Below, piece by piece: positions 2,745 through 13,375 of a stretch of DNA of 64,000 nt. Source of the DNA: Eremomyces bilateralis CBS 781.70 (lineage: Eukaryota); the NCBI GenBank assembly GCA_010015585.1, contig ML975151.1; one strand, written 5' to 3'. Under the pieces are notes generated by a model. That model searched no databases and was not told the DNA's origin. It was given only the letters and a program-made list of their open reading frames with translations. Position 1 is the stretch's first letter; every line of letters starts with the position of its first letter. The position numbers and the translations under genes are program-made.

Positions 2745-3960
2745 TCAGTCATCATCCTCGGCTGCGGGATCCTTAATAGGATATGTCGACGCCTGCCCTG
2801 TTTCAGGCCGTTTCGGCAGGTCCTCATAGAAGTCAGCAAGCATGTTCTCCGATACTCGCCGCGAAGGGTGATCTTTCGCCATAACTCTCCGCTTTAAAAT
2901 AACAACACGCTCTAGCAGCTGCACCGCTTTGACCTGTCCGTTTGCGTGATATGCTCTGGCGAGCTCGTGCTGCGACGCCAGTCGTGAGGGATGGTCTTCT
3001 GCGAGCACTTCCGCTTGCATCGCGACAACACGCTCCAGCAGCTCGACCGCCTCCTCGACCTGTCCGTTTGCTTGATATGCTCCGGCGAGCACCTCCCCAC
3101 CTTCAGACAGAGCTTGCTCTGCTCCGCTTTATCTTGGCATATCCCGTTCTCGTTTATGCGTGCCACATGGGGCAGATATTGTCTCCAGATCTCACGATTC
3201 GCGTAGTCGTCAGACGGAAAGACTTTCAAGAGGTGTTGCAGTGCCGCCCTGCTCGTGTCGGCTTCACGGCCTTTCCGACAATTCCATATTTTCGCCGACA
3301 TGGAAAAGCCTGTGCATGTCAAGCATCTTGCCGTCGTCCCTTCTCTCGAGAAACGAGTAAGAACAGGGCGTACCGAGAGCCCTGTCTATCGATACTTGCG
3401 AATCAGCAGCAGGTAGGATGGTACGTGGAATTGCCTTCCATTCAATGCACGAGATGAAGGTAAGAGGGTCTGCCGCCACTGTGTCGTGCTTGAGAATCTA
3501 GTTAAAACTGACTGTCCATGTCTTTGCCACCGCGTTCTTCGACGTTTTGTATCGTGAGTTGTCTGCAAATTCAATACTCATGATCTCGATGGCGTCCTGC
3601 CCCCAGCTCTTGAGCAGCTCATGATACTCTGCGATAGAGCTTCTGTTGGTGTTGATGTATGCGGCCACTTGAGTGATGGCCAAAGGGAGATACTCTAGCT
3701 CAATGAGCAGGTTTGTCATAAGCGTATTGTCGTTGGGCAAGCGTTTCGGATGTAACGGCTTCTTGAGCAAGTTCATCGTCTCTTGTATCTCCATCTTTTC
3801 GACTTCGATCATATCGCTACCTGCAACGAACTGCGCAACTTCATTGTACCGGGTTGTGAACAAAGTGGGGCCGCTGTTGCTCTCGGGCAAAAACTCCAAC
3901 AAGCCTTCCCCTTCCTCGAGACTGCGGAGGAGGTCCATGTCGTCGGCATTGTCAACAGTC
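2745..3960 (-). pseudogene. NB-ARC + TPR fungal NLR-like gene, 5'-truncated and disrupted
   Basis: Shows VDNADD (Walker B-like), LFTTR, LEYLPLAITQVAAYI, TWTVSF, MHRL, WRQYLPH and kinesin-light-chain-type TPRs (LAEDHPSRLASQHELARAY). There is a TAG at 3498-3500, frameshifts near 3290 and 3090, and no P-loop or N-terminal effector. Confidence 0.85.
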
Positions 3961-6182
3961 TGGGTTGATGTCAGCACGAACGGCGTTCCCAGAGCTAGGG
4001 TCGTTGAATGGCGCTTGATTGTCCGCCGGTTCCAATTTGTACGTTCTTGGCATTAGCAACTCTGGTGCTAGCAGTGGTCCGGAGGAAGGTCGCTGTTCTG
4101 GAGTACCGAAGATGTTGGCGGCGACCACATAAGAGTTGACGTCCAGCTTTGGGATATTAGTCATTAACCCTTGAGCGAGGTATCTGTAGCCAGTGGAATC
4201 AGTGCAGGTTGAGAGAAGCTCCTAGCTGTGGATGAGAAAGTGTCCTAAAGCTTGGCCTATCGGGGGTAGAACAACTCACAAGGACGGCTTCATGCAGAAC
4301 ACTCCGCTCGCCGAGTACGAGACCTTTTGCAAGTTTCTCAAGTTTAGCACAGCCTGCCAAGAGACGGCTTGTAATATGATAGCCTCTGTCTCGTTGTAGG
4401 TTCTCTAGGAATCGGACAAAGGAGGCCATATGTTTGACGCTCGTCAACGCGTAGTCATCTTCTGGATTCCTAATCACGGCTGAAAGCAGCGCGAGAGTCG
4501 CTGAAAACATGCTCTGTAGTGGTTCCCTTGGTAAGTTAACCACGGTGAACTACTGAAGAGGTCCTTTGCCTACCAAATCTCTACGAGCGGTAGAGTTTCC
4601 AGGCAGGGGGTCATGGCAAGAGTTGCTCGGGCAGCTCTAGCGCAATTGTCGGTGAAGAAGCCTAGACGATCCATAGCCGGCGATGGTAGGTGTTGCGCTA
4701 TATTACTAATTCGTATCTCTTCTGAATTATAGAGTTCTGCAGCGGCGCGGATCATGCCTACACAATCGTAGTACGCAAGATGCAGAGCGGTAACTGAACT
4801 GCTCAGGCTTGCCGGGTTTGGATGGAGATGGTATTCTGGTCGGACAGCCGGTGGCACAGCGTCCCGCCAAGCTGTTAGCTCATCCCGAAGCTGCGAGATT
4901 TCGTTAATCGTCGACATCCCTTGAACTCTATCGTACGTCCTGTTCAGCAAATGTCTGTGTACCCTCGACTCGATGATGGCCAGTTGGACCCTTAGCTTGA
5001 AGATCTTAATATTGTCCACCGCATGTGTAGAGTTGAGATCCCGAACTCCCCTAAGGAGATTCTCATCCGGTAGATGAACTTGAATGTTGTCCAGTTCGAG
5101 GGCAGGATGCTGTTTTGCTTTTATGCTTGAAGTCGTATCAAGTAGGAACGCTGTCCAAAATATACGACGCCGTTGCTCTGCCTCCGCGGGACTCAATTCT
5201 AGGTCAGGACTTTCCTTGTGAAACCCCAAGAGCTGTATCATCCTCATTGCCGAGGAGATGAGAAGTATCATAGTCCGTAAGTCCGCCGTTCTCTTCAAGA
5301 AGCATGCCATAACCAGTATCGCCTGGACAGCCAGAACATTAGGGCTTATTAGGATAATCTCAGCTTGGAGAAAATAGGCAGTTTTGAAAAAAGCCCACGA
5401 AAACTCCGATACTTTATGAAAGGATTTGTCCACTGCCCTGGATTGAGTTGTGATAGCAACGATGGCATTAGTACATGCCACCCACGCCGGGTTTTCGAGG
5501 GCCCTTTCGTCTGGCGTCTGGCGCTGACACAACATCCTAAGCGACTCAGGATGGAAGATAGGAATAGTCGCGTTTAGGTCCTCGAGGAAGAACTCAACCA
5601 TGCTAATTAATTCGCCTTTAGGTAACGTAGGCGCAAATAGGTTCCTGCGCGGGAGCATCTCAGACATCTTCTTTCTAAGATCTTGAACCTCACTTTCGGT
5701 AAAATGCGCTCCTGGAAAGTCAGGTGGAGGCTTTAGTAGAGTCGGAACGCTGTTTGAATCGGACAGCATTAGTGGACATGCGTTTGAGGTCGTTACGATC
5801 GGAGCTGTATAGTCTGTGATGGCTGACGATTGCGCGTTCCCGTTTCTTCCCGTGGCGGGTGTCGAAATCTGAGAAGACATCCCAATAGAATGTTCCTCAA
5901 GCGGTGACGTCTCTGCTTGATGGGCAGCGGAAGACTTGAGTAACTCCTCCATAGCCTCCATTCGCTCCTCTAGTGCACGTATATACTCTCTCCTACATCA
6001 GGAATCAGCTTCCCTTGTGTTTGGTTGCAAAACATGGAGCTAACTGACGTCTTGCCTTTTCCTCTTTTTCTTGCTTGTCCATAAGAGCATGTTGAACTTT
6101 GAGCGTCACAGGGCGAGCAAGTTGGCGTAGCAGCATCGCATCGAATTTTCTTGGCCTGACACTGTTCACATGCCTGTGCCAT
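3952..6182 (-). CDS. Zn(II)2Cys6 transcription factor with fungal-specific TF middle-homology domain (multi-exon)
   Basis: ATG at 6182 gives MAQACEQCQAKKIRCDAATPTCSPCDAQSSTC (six-Cys motif). ORF 4570..5961 contains QLLGFHK...EQRRRIFWTAFLLD. Downstream exons lie at ~4199-4543 and ~3952-4190. Confidence 0.9.
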
Positions 6183-6588
6183 GTTAGTAATAGGAACCGG
6201 GGTGTATCTTAAGTCGAGATCGAACCAGCAGAGTTTCACGTGGAGTTACAATACCTGTTTGACGCGACGTTTCTTCTGCCGAGACGCCTGGCCTCTTCCC
6301 AACTCCATGAGCGACGACAATACCGCGAGAGGCGGGCGGCTCAGTCTTCCCTTGGCATAAAAAAGAGTCAATCAGCAAGAATACAGTTGCGCTGCGTCTA
6401 GCAGAGGCAATAAGTATTGTACTTCAATACGCAGCAGAGAAAAGCGGTAGGTTTTATCGGTGGAGAGTTCCTTGCACACGGTTGACGTACTTTGCATTTG
6501 CCCGGAAGCAAACGGTCCGATATACCCTGTAGATGATGATACAACCTCCATCGATTGGCCCACTAGCCATCGGAACGCGATAGAAGGA

Positions 6589-8338
6589 GGCTGGTGAGAT
6601 TTTCCCACCAGGTTTTGAGATTTTCCCACCATTTGAGATTTTCCCACCAGCTCTTGTTTAGTGGAAATTAATCGCTCAACTGAGCCTAGTGCGTATTTCC
6701 ATATATCTTCTTCTGCAGACAACTTCAATGTTCAATCTGGTCTTTCTCTCACAATCTCCGCATGGAGGTGTTTCTTGCCAGAGATCAGGTTTTCGGGATA
6801 TCTTTGTTTTTCGGCGTTTTCCGGTTTCCTACCCGTGACCCCCATTTCTTGCTCGTATTTAGGTCTCAGCATCGACACTATAATACAGTTACAACCTCTC
6901 CTGTTGAAGGAATGCATAGGGTTTTGAAGGACCACCTTATGTCTTCAAGAGGCGACTTGCTACGTGTTGTTGGAAGGATTGAGCAGATGGTCAAGAGTTA
7001 ATACAACAAGTACAGGAAACAGATTGCTTCTTCTAAACACAGCATTAAATTTGAGCACAGACTGGAGTCAATGCCATTCCTACCTCCTGGCATTCATGAC
7101 ATCCTTACGCCAGCGGCAATTGAACGCATTAGACAACAGGATCTGCTGCGCCAGAAGGAGCAGAGACAACGTCGTAGGAGGCGTCCTTGTTCTGGCCTCT
7201 ATGAGAAGATAAACGGTCTTCCATGTCATCATACGCTACGAGATGTGATAAATTCTGGATCGACGTTACGACCAAATCACCTTTACGACGATCATTGGCG
7301 CTATCAACGTGAGCAAGGACGGTCAATAAGCCTCTCTCCAAGGCCATATCAATCTATCCTAGAGCCGCTTCCGGCTCAAACAAGAGGTGCGCCGAGGAAG
7401 AACGAGGCATCAACTCGTCGAGATCTATCAGCTTTTGAACGACGTGTACCGCCTTCTCTACCACAACCTCAAGGTCAATCACTTACTGAGGTCTTACGGC
7501 ACACAAACACCTCTGTCGCTGTGTCAATTCCTACATCTGCACTACCTACGAATGCTATAACTCGTCGAGATCCTTCGGGCTTTGAACGACGTGTGCCACC
7601 TTCTATCCCTCAATTTCAGCCTCCTCCTCAACCCCAGGGTCAAACACTTGCTGAGGTCTTGCGACACACAAACACAGCTGTTACCATATCAGTTCCTACA
7701 TCTGCACCAGCTACGAATCCTATAACTACTCCTCNNNNNNNNNNNNNNNNNNNNNNNNNNNNNNNNNNNNNNNNNNNNNNNNNNNNNNNNNNNNNNNNNN
7801 NNNNNNNNNNNNNNNNNNNNNNNNNNNNNNNNNNNNNNNNNNNNNNNNNNNNNNNNNNNNNNNNNNNNNNNNNNNNNNNNNNNNNNNNNNNNNNNNNNNN
7901 NNNNNNNNNNNNNNNNNNNNNNNNNNNNNNNNNNNNNNNNNNNNNNNNNNNNNNNNNNNNNNNNNNNNNNNNNNNNNNNNNNNNNNNNNNNNNNNNNNNN
8001 NNNNNNNNNNNNNNNNNNNNNNNNNNNNNNNNNNNNNNNNNNNNNNNNNNNNNNNNNNNNNNNNNNNNNNNNNNNNNNNNNNNNNNNNNNNNNNNNNNNN
8101 NNNNNNNNNNNNNNNNNNNNNNNNNNNNNNNNNNNNNNNNNNNNNNNNNNNNNNNNNNNNNNNNNNNNNNNNNNCTTCATAGGGAATAGATTGAAACATT
8201 GAAGTTGTTCGCAGAAGAAGATATAGGAAAATACGCGCTAGGCTCAGTTGAGCGATTAATTTCCACTAAACAAGAGCTGGTGGGAAAATCTCAAATGGTG
8301 GGAAAATCTCAAAACCTGGTGGGAAAATCTCACCAGCC
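6589..8338. mobile_element. Mutator-like (MULE) DNA transposon, internally deleted / non-autonomous
   Basis: About 150-bp terminal inverted repeats (GGCTGGTGAGATTTTCCCACCA... / ...TGGTGGGAAAATCTCACCAGCC), each with three TGAGATTTTCCCACCA subrepeats. The 9-bp TSD is ATAGAAGGA (6580-6588) / ATAGAAGAA (8339-8347). An assembly gap lies at 7735-8174. Confidence 0.9.
6860..7734 (+). pseudogene. C-terminal fragment of a MULE transposase
   Basis: HYNTVTTSPVEGMHRVLK and CSGLYEKINGLPCHH (SWIM-like) motifs typical of fungal MULE transposases, in one frame interrupted by a single TAA (6999-7001). The N-terminal and core region is missing. Confidence 0.75.
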
Positions 8339-8843
8339 ATAGAAGAATGCAGAGCACCCGCGGTTAACAGGACGTTGCCCGGAGCTTGCCGGCCACTCCG
8401 CCGACAGGCATTCGCGACCTGTGCTGATCAAGATGGCTGACAACACTGTCTCACTCGAACAAAACCTAATTACTTCAGAGCTTACCCCTGTATTCGGATG
8501 AATCATGCCATTTTGAATCCACAGGTGATGGCCTCAACCTCCATGATTCCTTTTATTGACAGGAGGCCTAGAGGTAGATGTGAGGAATTCGAATGCAACA
8601 CACCGCACTGGGCAAAAGTTGGGTCGTAATAAGCTATTCGGCAGAAACAAACTGTAGTACTAGCCAATCATAACGGGCAAGTCTTAGAAAGAAATCTGGC
8701 AAGAACGCTCAGTCTTGGAAGAGGATCAGGATCGCTGCGAAGGCTGCAAGGCACCAGCTTAGATCTGTGTGCTGTTGCGTTGACATTCCGACAACCGACA
8801 ACTAAAGCATTGTCTATGCCGTTCACTTCCACTCTCGTACCAG

Positions 8844-9700
8844 TCACTTACGGCTAGTGGTCCGATCACTAACAGCAGGAAGCTTGCCAACCCACTTCCC
8901 CTGCCCCTGCTCCACTGTATCAACTAGCCATCGCGCAAGTCCGCTGCGATTGGTCCAATACTTCCAGTCTTTGTCGCCCACATAGCCAACATAAGTTGAG
9001 TGCTCGCGATCCCTTTTCCAGCTGTCGGCATCGGACTCGCCAGGTATTGCAGTGATACGGAAGAGAGTCCAGTCTAGCCCTTGAGCCTCGTCACGGAAAA
9101 CCCGCGCGACATTTTGCATGCATTGATAGGCCCCCGGGGCGAGCAATTTAAAGATTCGTCGAATGAAGATATTCACGAGCAGATTAAAGTTGTCATTAGA
9201 CTCGGCCACGGACGGAGTGCACACTATAAGGGACAGTGTTAGTGACTTAACAGGGAGTCGGTCGCCAAAGAAGAAGCCACTATCCGAGAGTAGCTTAGAG
9301 TACGTACTAGCCAGAATTCGCTTAACGCCATGCTCCCGCATTAGCGGAAACATCAACGAATAGTAACCGGGATAAGGCATTGGGCTTCGCATGTCATTAG
9401 GACCGAGGAATGATACAATGATATAAGCTGTGGCAATGACTGCGCTCAAGGACGCGGTGTCCTCCATTGTACCTTGGACAACCTTAGAGAACGCATGTTA
9501 GTTGAACTGCACCCGCACTCTACTGTACAGCTACACGCACAACTTACTTCAAGTAAAGGATCGTCCTCTAAGTCCTGCGGTATCTTGGAAGGTGTCCGGA
9601 CATAAGCAATCGTTGCATGTTTGCGGTGTAGGAGCTCGCGAAGCAAGACGATTCCTGCCGGGCCCGTAGCGCCGAGGACGAGGACTTTATCACCAGCCAT
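8844..9700 (-). CDS. NAD(P)H-binding Rossmann-fold reductase (biliverdin reductase B / atypical SDR-like)
   Basis: MAGDKVLVLGATGPAG...IAYVRTPSK N-terminus and LDWTLFR motif; introns near 9483-9547 and 9222-9305. Confidence 0.85.
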
Positions 9701-9837
9701 TGCTTTGCGTGATGATCTGATAATGAGAGCAGATAAGGAGGACAAATATTTTTGTGGTTGACTAAACATCTATCCACACCAGATCTCCGGGAGCGTTTTA
9801 AGCAAAAGCCACCAGGCAGGCACACGGCTTTATAATC

Positions 9838-10104
9838 CGGATTCAAATTGGTTCCGGACCACTTGCCCAATCCAGCCTAGGTGGCCAGTGGGTTGAACCT
9901 CCACTCTGCCCCTCCCAGGAAAGTCAAGTGAGGCTGGTACCAGCAGTACTTTTTGGGCGTATAGTCAGCCTTCGGACGACTTGGACATGATGTCTTTGTT
10001 CTGGCGGACGTTCTAGATCCTGCCCCACTTATTACAAATTACAAAGGTAAAGGCTTACGGAACCAATTTGCATCCGTCCTCCAGGCGGAGCTATTTTGCA
10101 TCCG
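9838..10104. promoter_or_regulatory. Three CGG-N13-CCG inverted sites in a divergent promoter (candidate Zn2Cys6 binding sites)
   Basis: 9838-9856 CGGattcaaattggttCCG, 10058-10076 CGGaaccaatttgcatCCG, 10086-10104 CGGagctattttgcatCCG. Confidence 0.65.
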
Positions 10105-10230
10105 CCAACGACCTTACATATGTAAGCAGGTAGGGATCAATACTTATATTCCATTGACCCTTATGTGTCTCGATGCAAGAAATACCAACAACTTTAGCAC
10201 ATACTCGACATACCTGTTGCTCACTTCACA

Positions 10231-11279
10231 ATGCCTGTCGCTGCAGTTGCAGGAGGAACCGGCAAGCTCGGCCGCGCCATCGTTGATGGTATTAACGCTG
10301 CTGGCAAGTTCGAGGTCGTGATCCTCGCTCGTCAGGCAAGTAGCCACCATACATATTTTAGGATCTGCTGATTAACATCTGTCCTCTCTAGGCCGATGAT
10401 GAAAAAGCAGAGGAGATAGGTGCTCGCATTATTGCTGTAGACTACAGCAGCCCTGACGCAATTGCATCGGTGCTTGAGGGAAACAGTGTTGAAGTTGTCA
10501 TTTCGGCTCTGAGCAGTCAGTCACCACCTGAGCAAGAACTCAATCTGCTCAAGGGAGCGGACCAGTCGTTGGTGACCAAGCGATATATTCCAAGTATCTG
10601 GGGCATCCGCTACACTGAGGAGTACGTACCCGACCATGCACTCCCCAGTTTCCTGCAAAACACTGACAGCAAGCCTTGTAGGATAGCTTCATACTTTCCC
10701 CCGGCCGCCATCAAGCTGAGCTACATCAAGGCCCTGGAATCCACCTCCATCGAATGGACTGCTGTGATTAATGGGTATTTTCTAGACTACTATGGTGCAC
10801 CAAAGGTCAAGACGTACATGCCTTCCATGGCGCTCGTCGTTGATTTGGACAGCAACTTCGCAGCGATCCCTGGTTCCGGAGATGTGCCAGTTGTCTTCAC
10901 GCATACCTTCGATGTCGGTAAATTCGTTGCTGCCCTTCTAACTAAGGACATCTGGGAGAAGGAGTCTTACATCATTGGTGACAGAGTGACACTGAACGAG
11001 TTCGTTCGGTTTGCCGAGGAGGTTAAGAAGACAAAGTTCACCGTCGAGCACGATTCTATCGAAAAGTTGAAGACGGGCCAGATTACCGAATTACCGTCTC
11101 ACCCGCCATTCTATCCCTTCTTCCCCAAGCAAATGCTTCAAGGGATGTTCGCAGCTTTTGGCATCATGTTCGAGAACGGAGTTTTCGATTTGAAACCTAG
11201 TCGAACTCTGAACGATGACTTCCCCGACATCAAGCCTATGACAATCAGAGAGCTCATTTTGGAGGCTTACGGAGCTTAA
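10231..11279 (+). CDS. NmrA-like / isoflavone-reductase-family NAD(P)-binding protein
   Basis: MPVAAVAGGTGKLGRAIV, RYIPSIWG, NGYFLDYY and DVGKFV motifs. GC-AG intron 10336-10391 keeps the frame; a second intron lies at ~10624-10681. Confidence 0.9.
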
Positions 11280-11677
11280 GAATGGTGCACAGACTGTGGC
11301 AGATGAAGCGAGGTATCAAATCCAATCCTGCAGATCGATTACCGCCAGTTGTAGTTCAGAATGCATATTAAGCCAATGTTTTCTAGTTACTACGTTGCAA
11401 TAATTTCAACATAGACGCCTCTTGTTGCAGTTAAACCAGGGCTTGCTTGTCTCTGATCCGCCCGTCCCTTGTGACAATTTTGCATGATCGGAGATAAAGA
11501 GACTCAGCCACACTACGGTATAGCTCATTCCTTTAAAAACTGGTTGTCAGGGGGGCTTGCTAAACCCTAATATTATTTTACAAATATCTTCCAAATTCAG
11601 GCAACAACTGGCCTGCAGCTTCATACTGAGCTCAGGTCCATACCTCTTGGTCTGTCACTGGCTTCATTGGACACCCA

Positions 11678-11863
11678 TTGGTGACGCAACCCCGAAGTCC
11701 ACGATATCACACAGCGGGATTAAGCCCAGGCGGAGTGTGGATCACGTATAACTCAGAGAATGTCCTGTGGTTGCCCTCGGAATATCGGGCGTTGTGTTCA
11801 GCCGTGTCCACACCGACTGTCGGTATCGGTGTTGGATCTGGAAAGGTATGGATGGATGTGTAG
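11678..11863 (+). pseudogene. C-terminal relic of a NACHT-WD40 (HET-E-like) NLR gene
   Basis: WITYNSENVLWLPSEYR..CSAVS..TVGIGVGSGKVW matches the characteristic tail of fungal NACHT-WD40 proteins. No upstream domains are visible. Confidence 0.7.
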
Positions 11864-12424
11864 CTTCATCAAGGACAGCGAAAATTTTGGATAGGAGTGG
11901 CTATTATTTAATGATTTTTCATGGTACCTCAATTTCATCGAGGGGTCAGGGGTTGAACCTGAATATATGGTCTAGAGATTTGCCACGGTGAAGCCTCTGG
12001 AGTGCTCCAGATTGACAAGCTCGGCATTGTTGTCGAACTCTCCACAATATGACATACAAATCTTCCTCACGAACCTGTGCATCTACACTACAGCAGTCAC
12101 ATTATCGAAGACGATTTCTAGCATCGTTGTAGGACTTTAAGACCTAGATAAGGGTCTTTGATGAGTTGTAATACAGTAAAATGAGATACATGGCAGATCT
12201 GGGCTGAAAGTTGGAGCATGCACGGTTTGTTATGTTTTTGCCTGATGAGGGTAACTAGAGGTCACCAGCGACGGACCGTCCTGTTTCTGCACGCAGGGAA
12301 TCCACGTCCTCCAGAAGTACTGTGTGGGGTCAGAGTAATCCGGTCAAATCGTGCACAGGCCCCCGCGACTGCGAGACGCGTCAAAACGACTCTCGATCTT
12401 GCATGATTAATATCTTCATCAATT

Positions 12425-12912
12425 TTGATGATGGAACGCTCAATTCTGGGTGAAATTAGCGGCAATCGGCGTAATGATGCAGATCTTACGCTAGAACAGC
12501 GATCCGCAATCATTACAATGGTCGATGCGGGCCTAATATCCAAGCGAGCAATTGCGCGCGAGGTCGGATGCTCGCCCTCAACCATCGACTGTATAATTGA
12601 GAAGTTCCGTACACAACGAACATTTAAGTCTCTCCCAAAAGGACACCGTACTAAGATGATCACGGAATCTAACTTGCGTTATCTCCAACAATAAATCCCA
12701 AAAAATCCCAAAAATCACGCACAACGAGCTGGCGCGGTCCCTCGCCTGCGATAAAGGCACCCCGTCAGAGTCGACCGTCAAACGCGCGCTGCGGGGGTCC
12801 AAATACTGCCGCAAATGGCGTATGCGTAAGAAAATCCAATTAACGGAAGAGGGAGCCCATAAACGACTCAAATTCGTAAGGTATTGGCTTCCTAAAATCG
12901 AGCAATTAATGG
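12425..12912 (+). mobile_element. Tc1/mariner transposase relic (N-terminal HTH domains only)
   Basis: LTLEQRSAII...SKRAIAREVGCSPSTI, then a TAA and frameshift, then PSESTVKRALR...RKKIQLTEEGAHKRLKFVRYW. No DDE domain or paired TIRs were found. Confidence 0.75.
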
Positions 12913-13375
12913 TTAGTCTAACTATGCTAACTTATAACTAATAACAGTTTAGTAAATGAGCAGACAGCAGACGTTGAAATTGAGAAGGCTGTTTGGCGTG
13001 TTCGACTTTGGGTGATTGGCCAGGGAACGTCTGGTCTTGGATATGGTTAATACCATTACGGCTGTTGGTGCTTATAAATGAAAGCAAAACGACCGAATAA
13101 CATCGTGTCTTTTTAAAGTACAAAGCTAGAAAACGAGTCATCATGAAATTTTTTATAACCAGACTCAATCGGCATATAAACGGCACATTTCGTTCACACT
13201 GCATACACATCAGTCGAAGGCTAAAGTACGGATGACGTACCATTCAGCTATATCTCGTGCGATATGAACCTGACCATCATCCTATACACAGCACCTAGAG
13301 TTGGCAATTACTTTCATGAAATGCATGTGGTTTTTAAAACCGCACGATGGAACCGAACGATACGGTATTGGGTAT

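What the first reader, a model, noticed from the sequence alone, without database searches (positions are those of the whole stretch)
3952..11279. Self-contained three-gene regulon with a readable operator, CGG-N13-CCG x3
Seen: the 530-bp divergent promoter between two NAD(P)-dependent reductases has three sites with identical spacing (CGGA-N11-TCCG). The reverse complement of the 9838 site (CGGaaccaatttgaatCCG) differs from the 10058 site by 1 nt, and the sites are oriented towards their nearer gene. Established: Zn2Cys6 dimers bind CGG triplets at fixed spacing (Gal4 uses CGG-N11-CCG). Inference: the neighbouring Zn2Cys6 factor induces both reductases as a xenobiotic or phenolic detoxification module, with an unusually long N13 spacer.
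Basis: partly seen in the sequence, partly recalled or inferred. Interest (0 to 1): 0.7.

Follow-up and report, generated by a model that had tools for sequence, protein, structure and literature searches.

The report
Conserved fungal reductase operator and regulator
A 19-letter DNA signal in front of a fungal reductase gene recurs in distant fungi, often next to the same kind of zinc-cluster regulator, so it is very likely that regulator's binding site, although what switches it on is unknown.

Summary
The three CGG-N13-CCG sites are real (0 of 20,000 shuffles reach three) and conserved. In 12 of 19 independent promoters of homologous reductases from other fungi the N13 site recurs (20 sites; shuffles 1.8, max 7), and its spacer is conserved too: palindrome CGGAASCAAWTTGSTTCCG. 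A related Zn2Cys6 gene lies beside the reductase in 6 of 12 motif-bearing and 0 of 7 motif-free loci; in one locus a site also precedes the regulator gene. These regulators share an R-G-x-G-K linker. So the conserved unit is regulator + operator + NmrA/pinoresinol-reductase-like enzyme. Binding, activation, inducer and the detoxification role are inferred, not shown. Closest known: AtrR (N12, spacer not read) and QA-1F (palindrome one base shorter). No N13 report turned up in three paper searches. Verdict: new variant of a known kind.

The parts
3952..6308 (-). Zn2Cys6 + Fungal_trans regulator gene; exons 6255-6308, 6049-6173, 4574-5992, 4280-4526, 3952-4221; 704 aa if fully spliced
   Evidence: Pfam PF00172 E=3.4e-9, PF04082 E=1.9e-28; model; three of four introns joined in run X3; C-terminal exons 41-53% identical to L013/L021 homologs
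4527..4573 (-). 47-nt intron with weak signals (GTAGGC donor, TTAAC branch, AAG acceptor); retention gives an in-frame stop and a 533-aa product
   Evidence: X3 contig runs 4279-5991 without a gap; an intron at the same codon with CAG acceptor is seen in L013, L021, L001, L008 and is absent in L017
6503..6519 (+). One perfect half-site inside a CGG-N11-CCG in the regulator's own upstream region; possible decayed autoregulatory site
   Evidence: exact 10-mer half-site occurs twice in the 64-kb window; no N13 site upstream of the regulator, also after removing the transposon in silico
6589..8338 (.). Mutator (MULE) family element, internally deleted or gapped (N run), 144-nt terminal inverted repeats, 9-bp target-site duplication with 1 mismatch
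   Evidence: 97% inverted repeats; flanks; 43 matches in G000, two other copies 99-100% identical; related copy L093 carries PF10551 MULE E=1.2e-23
8844..9700 (-). Left reductase, NAD(P)H-binding, flavin reductase/biliverdin IX-beta reductase-like, 235 aa; introns 9483-9547 and 9224-9307
   Evidence: (best PDB match E=1.4e-4), introns joined in X3
9829..9834 (-). TATAAA box of the left reductase, 3 nt from the end of the 9838 site
   Evidence: position -134
9838..9856 (.). Operator 1 (CGG-N13-CCG); spacer score 13.6 bits on a matrix built without the window
10058..10076 (.). Operator 2; 15.6 bits; the identical 19-mer stands upstream of the homologs in L006 and L017
10086..10104 (.). Operator 3; 8.3 bits; 28 nt after operator 2
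10231..11279 (+). Right reductase, NmrA-like atypical SDR of the pinoresinol/isoflavone/phenylcoumaran benzylic ether reductase type, 310 aa; GC-AG intron 10336-10391 and intron 10623-10682
   Evidence: (pinoresinol reductase 2 E=2e-7; PCBER E=3.4e-6), introns joined in X3

Best explanation
The 19-bp palindrome CGGAASCAAWTTGSTTCCG is the upstream activating site of a widespread, uncharacterised subfamily of Gal4-type regulators (R-G-x-G-K linker), whose conserved target is an NmrA/pinoresinol-reductase-like NADPH reductase, usually encoded next door and often head to head. SHOWN: conservation of sites and spacer, their position upstream of TATA-like boxes, the linkage to the regulator family, its zinc cluster, coiled coil and Cep3-like body. 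INFERRED: a homodimer binds the two CGG triplets; the Arg/Gly/Lys linker contacts the A/T-rich spacer, which would explain the conserved spacer; a small molecule sensed by the body domain switches on the reductase and, where a site precedes it, the regulator itself; the reductase removes an electrophilic or phenolic compound (about 45% for that role). In this genome a flavin-reductase-like gene occupies the head-to-head position and is probably co-regulated through the 9838 site (about 65%), while the regulator may be weakened by the transposon and the retained intron.
For: N13 sites: 20 in 12 of 19 independent promoters, next-best spacing 6; shuffles mean 1.8, max 7 of 1000; downstream control 3 in 14.7 kb. 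Spacer: the window's three sites score 13.6, 15.6, 8.3 bits on a matrix built without them, the other 12 window sites -5.9 to -27.5; of 69 N13 sites in 199 kb of 17 loci the 19 with positive scores all lie upstream of the reductase or the regulator (most were training sites). Linkage: regulator homolog in 6 of 12 motif-bearing vs 0 of 7 motif-free clusters, p=0.034; 6 of 8 vs 0 of 6 among loci with at least 1.1 kb upstream, p=0.009. L001 has a further strong site at 2360, upstream of the regulator and downstream of the reductase. All 6 independent linked regulators and the window's share the R-G-x-G-K linker; 18 of 34 zinc-cluster-bearing relatives have it. Lys-Lys at the triplet-reading positions aligns with Gal4. 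Precedent for an Arg/Gly segment reading the minor groove next to CGG: Pho7 (PMC6265462, passages).
Against: No binding or expression-response data. Loci are related, so the Fisher p-values overstate independence. L006 (18.9 kb) and L037 carry sites without a neighbouring regulator. Linked regulators form two subclades and are not resolved as one clade against the paralog L057 (69/51). Motif presence is not clearly clustered on the reductase tree (43 of 500 shuffles as low). The window's regulator has no full site upstream, and the X3 contig encodes a form lacking 171 residues that belong to the folded body in a homolog's model. The left reductase is absent from 39 of 39 homologous loci, and its site lies only 3 nt from the TATA box, tight for an activator.
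Confidence: 0.78

Rival explanations
1. The sites are real but are read by another, unlinked Zn2Cys6 factor, such as the conserved paralog at L057 (AtrR-like, identity recalled), and the neighbouring gene is only a frequent passenger.
For: Sites without a neighbouring regulator in L006 and L037; L057 falls in the same 99/99 clade as the linked regulators; the local regulator transcript retains an intron while both reductases give spliced contigs in the same run.
Against: AtrR reads N12, tolerates a 6-bp spacer mutation and has nearly 900 peaks (PMC6414702, passages), whereas the N13 consensus has 9 matches at 1 mismatch or fewer in 26.9 Mb, 3 of them here. Regulator linkage is confined to motif-bearing loci and L001 has a site before the regulator itself.
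Confidence: 0.1
2. The linked factor binds the sites but acts as a repressor or as a ligand-released brake; here the 9838 site would hinder TBP at the adjacent TATA box, and the truncated isoform would be the repressing form.
For: 3-nt gap between site and TATAAA; the family's conserved C-terminal module looks non-acidic (read by eye); retained-intron contig.
Against: In the homologous reductase promoters the sites lie upstream of TATA-like boxes, about 15 to 160 nt away where such a box was found, the layout of activating sequences; most Zn2Cys6 factors activate (established knowledge).
Confidence: 0.08
3. The palindromes are RNA hairpins or cruciforms, not protein-binding sites.
For: Some sites could form a 7-bp stem (L007, L015); the X3 contig of the left gene reaches 9962 and so covers one site.
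Against: Stem pairing is no higher than with halves shuffled among sites: 66 of 100 vs 67.8, P=0.75; the 19-mer shared by the window, L006 and L017 has two unpaired stem positions.
Confidence: 0.02
4. Chance, or local duplication of one sequence without function.
For: Sites 2 and 3 look like a local 28-nt duplication; the bare pattern is common.
Against: Same spacing and spacer in promoters of homologs 37-74% identical in protein whose other promoter sequence does not align.
Confidence: 0.02

Closest known systems
AtrR of Aspergillus fumigatus (ATRE, CGG-N12-CCG)
   Same: Inverted CGG triplets with a long spacer, tandem sites, binding to its own promoter (PMC6414702, passages). The nearest paralog in G000 (L057) carries words I recall as AtrR's; this identity comes from no call.
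   Different: Spacer 13 instead of 12; spacer letters conserved here but variable and dispensable for AtrR binding; a regulon of a few genes instead of about 900 peaks; different linker (R-G-x-G-K vs K-R-x-P-P-K-G); only 26% identity between the window's regulator and L057.
QA-1F (Neurospora) / Otf1 (Candida parapsilosis): GGR-N10-WCC palindrome
   Same: Cluster-encoded Gal4-like activator with a long palindromic site whose inner letters matter, controlling enzymes for aromatic or cyclic compounds (bioRxiv 10.1101/2021.09.13.460007, passages).
   Different: Core GGA-N11-TCC here is one base longer and has another inner sequence; no quinate or hydroxybenzoate pathway genes were seen beside it; homology to QA-1F not tested.
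Gal4 (CGG-N11-CCG; spacing recalled)
   Same: Zinc cluster, linker and coiled coil align with Gal4, Lac9 and Ppr1 chains.
   Different: The linker of homolog P0159 is one residue longer and Gly/basic; Gal4's linker runs above the minor groove without contacting DNA (PMC6265462), which would not explain a conserved spacer.
Pho7 of fission yeast
   Same: Arg/Gly segment after the zinc cluster enters the minor groove and reads bases 5-9 positions beyond CGG (PMC6265462, passages).
   Different: Pho7 is a monomer on an asymmetric site; this family has a coiled coil and a symmetric site; sequence match to Pho7 is only E=0.99.
Plant PIP reductases (pinoresinol-lariciresinol, isoflavone, phenylcoumaran benzylic ether reductases) and fungal homologs named 'oxidoreductase BOA1' or 'isoflavone reductase like P3'
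   Same: Best solved relatives of the right reductase; GxxGxxG motif and the lysine in the catalytic position align.
   Different: Matches are remote (E 2e-7 to 6e-4); substrate untested; no biosynthetic backbone gene was seen among the 108 neighbouring frames scanned.

Membership tests
Gal4-type Zn2Cys6 transcription factor | Six-cysteine binuclear cluster (PF00172) | tested here: met
   37.1 bits, cut-off 21; exon joined in X3
Gal4-type Zn2Cys6 transcription factor | Linker followed by coiled coil, and middle homology region (PF04082) with Cep3-like helical body | tested here: met
   PF04082 99.7 bits; model of homolog P0159 (30% identical over 683 residues): helix 59-76, body matches Cep3 at Z 16.5, rmsd 5.9, 402 aligned
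Gal4-type Zn2Cys6 transcription factor | Binds CGG triplet pairs as a dimer and regulates the adjacent promoter | not testable with these tools
   Only comparative support
AtrR ortholog / ATRE system | CGG-N12-CCG site | tested here: not met
   No N12 pair in the 530-bp promoter; N12 5 sites vs N13 20 sites in homologous promoters
AtrR ortholog / ATRE system | Orthology to AtrR | tested here: inconclusive
   No AtrR sequence was available from a tool; the paralog L057, recalled as the AtrR ortholog, is a separate gene 26% identical; atlas and cluster names gave no confirmation
NmrA-like / PIP-type atypical SDR (right reductase) | N-terminal GxxGxxG dinucleotide-binding motif and similarity to PIP reductases | tested here: met
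   (PF05368 on the spliced record P0005)
NmrA-like / PIP-type atypical SDR (right reductase) | NADPH-dependent reduction of a phenolic or quinone-methide substrate | not testable with these tools
   No assay; substrate unknown
Flavin reductase / BVR-B-like (left reductase) | NAD_binding_10 fold with similarity to biliverdin IX-beta reductase | tested here: inconclusive
   PF13460 on the spliced record P0125; PDB match E=1.4e-4 over residues 1-113 only
Mutator (MULE) transposon | Long terminal inverted repeats, 9-bp target-site duplication, MULE transposase in the family | tested here: met
   transposase domain in related copy L093, not in the window copy
Starship cargo | DUF3435 captain gene at the boundary of the element | tested here: not met
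   Nearest DUF3435 match on contig C3 is at 975 kb, about 110 kb beyond the module

The most novel reading that the evidence does not exclude
The R-G-x-G-K subfamily is a dimeric Gal4-type regulator that reads its whole 19-bp site, using a Pho7-like or AT-hook-like linker in the minor groove of the A/T spacer. That gives near-unique specificity in a fungal genome and makes 'regulator + operator + reductase' a portable sensor cassette: its DNA code stays fixed across ascomycete classes while the sensing domain diverges to about 21-36% identity, new genes are recruited by landing in the head-to-head promoter, and activity is gated by splicing of one conserved intron in front of the last helices of the body domain.
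Probability: 0.25. Interest if true: 0.72.

Novelty: new variant of a known kind. Interest (0 to 1): 0.52.

Why it matters
Most fungal Zn2Cys6 factors have no known site, target or signal. This gives one widespread subfamily (database records from Trichoderma, Fusarium, Colletotrichum, Aspergillus, Penicillium, Thozetella and others) a precise operator and a conserved target gene, so that binding and the inducing compound can be tested with one probe and one reporter. It would also give a handle on the function of the many unassigned 'isoflavone reductase-like' fungal enzymes, and a tight 19-bp operator with few stray genomic matches could serve as an orthogonal switch in fungal synthetic biology. 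The principle (cluster-linked zinc-cluster activator on spaced CGG triplets) is textbook, which limits the surprise.

Tried and rejected
RNA hairpin reading: rejected. Orientation of sites: no signal. Wider regulon in G000: 9 matches at 1 mismatch or fewer (control 1), 3 here, 2 in coding frames, 4 intergenic single sites; treated as leads only. Own paralogs: the 50%-identical reductase paralog L041/L083 has no N13 site and no neighbouring regulator; weak paralogs of the left reductase gave no matrix hit of 14 bits. Starship origin: no captain nearby. Truncation of the regulator by the adjacent NB-ARC remnant: rejected, its C-terminus aligns to the end with L021. Confirming L057 as AtrR: atlas, cluster names and a look for an N12 site upstream of it (none close) gave nothing. 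Promoters of left-reductase homologs could not be read: none lay in the 39 loci and the metagenome records could not be searched further. The second NmrA-type gene in L021 is not a homolog of the left reductase (E=0.088) and has no positive site. Run search: no RNA holder listed on record; X3 is a guess that its spliced joints support; depths were not used to rank genes; X4 covers almost none of the stretch. The bacterial promoter scan does not apply. Earlier findings: three look-ups, nothing. Paper searches for an N13 site and for the gene pair found no description; the library lacks most subscription journals, the main zinc-cluster review was not held, and motif logos in figures or databases cannot be searched. 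Complex prediction was not used, as it takes no DNA.
Full report
Observation. The window is fungal DNA (spliceosomal introns, ascomycete homologs; G000, 26.9 Mb). The three sites are at 9838, 10058 and 10086 in a 530-bp head-to-head region between ATGs at 9700 and 10231. None of 20,000 dinucleotide shuffles of that region had three N13 sites; allowing any geometry and any spacing 0-20, three like pairs arose in 0.76%. The bare pattern is common: 15 in the window against 15.55 expected, and 485 CGGA-N11-TCCG in the genome, so only the clustering and the likeness of the spacers are informative.

Anatomy. Left to right: a Zn2Cys6/Fungal_trans gene (3952-6308, minus), a Mutator element (6589-8338), a flavin-reductase-like gene (8844-9700, minus), the promoter, and an NmrA/pinoresinol-reductase-like gene (10231-11279, plus). 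Run X3, listed as 'RNA?', gave contigs spliced at seven predicted introns, three in the regulator and two in each reductase, so all three genes are transcribed in that sample. Depths were not compared.

Conservation test. One metagenome scan with an alignment of 25 close reductase homologs returned 39 loci. Six lacked a usable start and were dropped; the other 33 collapsed to 23 clusters at 85% DNA identity, 19 of which had at least 280 nt upstream. In their 10.6 kb of upstream DNA, spacing 13 gave 20 sites in 12 of 19 clusters; the other 25 spacings gave 0-6 sites; 1000 shuffles gave 1.8 on average, at most 7; 25 downstream stretches gave 3. The spacer is conserved and symmetric: CGGAASCAAWTTGSTTCCG, about 1 bit at most spacer positions. 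The window's 10058 site is letter for letter the site in L006 (best segment 73% protein identity) and L017 (44%), although the promoters otherwise do not align; among closer relatives the two sites stand out as footprints. A matrix built without the window scores its three sites 13.6, 15.6 and 8.3 bits on the spacer alone and its other 12 N13 sites below -5. Leave-one-locus-out scores were positive for 19 of 20 training sites. Seven of 19 clusters have no site, and the own paralog L041 has none. On the reductase tree the label needs at least three changes and is not clearly clustered (43 of 500 shuffles), which fits an old motif lost several times but does not prove it.

Which factor. A homologous Zn2Cys6 gene lies beside the reductase in 6 clusters: head to head in L008, L013, L017 and L034, in tandem downstream in L001, and 3.5 kb downstream in L021. 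All six carry the motif; none of the seven motif-free clusters has such a neighbour (p=0.034; 6 of 8 vs 0 of 6 with at least 1.1 kb upstream, p=0.009; related loci and short contigs weaken these numbers). In L001 a strong site that was not in the training set lies between reductase and regulator, upstream of the regulator, which ties the motif to the regulator independently of the reductase promoter. L006 and L037 have sites but no neighbouring regulator in the DNA held. The linked regulators are only 21-36% identical to the window's in the body, yet all have an R-G-x-G-K linker after the sixth cysteine. Among the best 150 of 1733 representatives, 34 carry a zinc cluster and 18 of these have this linker; none of the 17 of them and 3 L057-like proteins looked up has a characterised name. 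They also share a C-terminal module ending in P-x-x-L-x-P-x-T-Y/F-x-F (read by eye). In a tree of 19 rows the linked regulators, the window's and one own paralog (L057) form a 99/99 group apart from seven other paralogs; the linked ones split in two subclades and their unity against L057 is unresolved (69/51). I recall L057's sequence words as those of AtrR; no call confirms it.

The second reductase. It was found in 0 of 39 loci (many are short). Where the window has it, four relatives have the regulator itself head to head, and in L017 with a like pair of sites. Two hints rest on contig lengths alone: the closest regulator homolog P0001 and reductase homolog P0034 both lie on a 4056-nt contig, too short for a third gene, and close homologs of the two reductases (P0017, P0310) both list a 5716-nt contig. 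So the simplest history is a conserved two-gene unit into whose head-to-head promoter the flavin-reductase-like gene came in one lineage. Its site is strong, 138 nt from the ATG, but only 3 nt from a TATAAA box.

State of the local regulator. Its upstream region has one perfect half-site in an N11 arrangement (6503) and no N13 site, with or without the transposon. The X3 contig runs unspliced through the 47-nt intron 4527-4573. That intron sits at the same codon in four homologs, there with CAG acceptors; here the donor and branch are weak. An AAG acceptor alone does not block splicing, as the left reductase's first intron uses one. Retention gives 533 instead of 704 residues; the database model P0146 (225 aa) ends at the same stop, probably from the same RNA. 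In the AlphaFold model of homolog P0159 (pLDDT 79.4) the part after this tryptophan forms confident helices within the Cep3-like body (Z 16.5, rmsd 5.9, 402 aligned), so the short form would lack part of a folded domain. The downstream exons are open and 41-53% identical to homologs, so the defect is recent, or the intron is spliced in part or on a signal. Contigs drop rare forms, and this is one sample.

Size of the regulon. The consensus with one mismatch has 9 matches in G000 (control 1): the three here, two inside coding frames, and single imperfect sites upstream of an RTA1-like gene, an ABC transporter gene, a Foie-gras-domain gene and in a region without a clear gene. A small regulon is therefore plausible; the two resistance-type genes are leads only.

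Mechanism. Established: Gal4-type dimers read CGG triplets at a spacing set by linker and coiled coil. Inferred here: a homodimer on the N13 palindrome, with the Arg/Gly/Lys linker contacting the A/T-rich spacer as the Arg/Gly segment of Pho7 does in the minor groove (PMC6265462, passages read); sites lie upstream of TATA-like boxes found at about -108 to -152 in 9 of 13 homologous promoters, as activating sequences do. The output is an NADPH reductase whose nearest solved relatives act on phenolic compounds (chemistry recalled). NmrA-like genes are strongly induced by the plant defence compound benzoxazolinone in Fusarium verticillioides (PMC10512309, passages), but homology of those genes to this family was not tested. 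No shared pathway gene appeared among 108 neighbouring frames scanned from 13 loci, which argues for a stand-alone response unit rather than a biosynthetic cluster. Detoxification is my best guess at about 45%. A hairpin reading and a meaning of orientation were tested and failed.

Comparison with what is known. AtrR binds CGG-N12-CCG, ignores a 6-bp spacer change and has nearly 900 peaks (PMC6414702, passages; PMC10294635 and PMC12505884, passages). QA-1F and Otf1 bind a palindrome with core GGR-N10-WCC (bioRxiv 10.1101/2021.09.13.460007, passages), a precedent for informative inner letters, one base shorter. The system works like these cluster-linked activators; it is not an ATRE system, as the spacing test fails. 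Three searches for an N13 site and five for the gene pair (listings only) found no description; one search found nothing on retention in such a factor. The library misses most subscription journals and motif databases, and no supplements were read, so an unpublished or database-only motif may exist.

Verdict. New variant of a known kind; interest 0.52.

Noticed in passing
window 10336-10391: The first intron of the right reductase is a non-canonical GC-AG intron, joined in run X3.
   Followed up: partly
window 2745-4052 (-): Broken NB-ARC + TPR (NLR-like) gene remnant; its NB-ARC part begins at the regulator's stop codon, and the regulator's X3 contig runs on over it.
   Followed up: partly
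window 11630-11900 and 12407-12941: A short frame that I recall as the C-terminal end of NACHT-WD proteins (no Pfam hit) and a frameshifted Tc1/mariner-like transposase; with piggyBac-type, pogo-type and Mutator pieces in the 30 kb before the window the module sits in a repeat-rich island of lower GC.
   Followed up: partly
window 9546-9962 and about 10005-10333: The X3 contigs of both reductases extend upstream over the operator sites and nearly meet; contigs cannot show starts, so upstream or overlapping transcription is only a possibility.
   Followed up: no
L024 211 and 3950: The reductase and its promoter, with the site, are present twice in inverted order on one 4.2-kb contig.
   Followed up: no
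L021 9723-9766; L003 -291; L041 -227: N12 variants: L021 has one with a perfect half-site next to its N13 site; the motif-free L003 and L041 promoters each have one N12 pair, possibly a shift in spacing in those lineages.
   Followed up: no
L078 1501 and L080 1501 (G000 C5:1159703, C47:5366): Single imperfect operator matches upstream of an RTA1-like gene and an ABC transporter gene, both resistance-type genes.
   Followed up: partly
G000, many contigs: 46 DUF3435 (Starship captain-type) matches in the genome, one locus at C3:975-976 kb beyond the window.
   Followed up: no
P0146: The database model of the window's regulator is only 225 aa, lacks the zinc cluster and ends at the retained-intron stop, so this factor is invisible as a Zn2Cys6 protein in annotation.
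   Followed up: yes
P0005-P0018: The closest named reductase homologs (63-77%) come from scattered orders (Lithohypha, Truncatella, Stachybotrys, Clarireedia, Beauveria, Cadophora), a patchy pattern that fits transfer or repeated loss; not tested.
   Followed up: no
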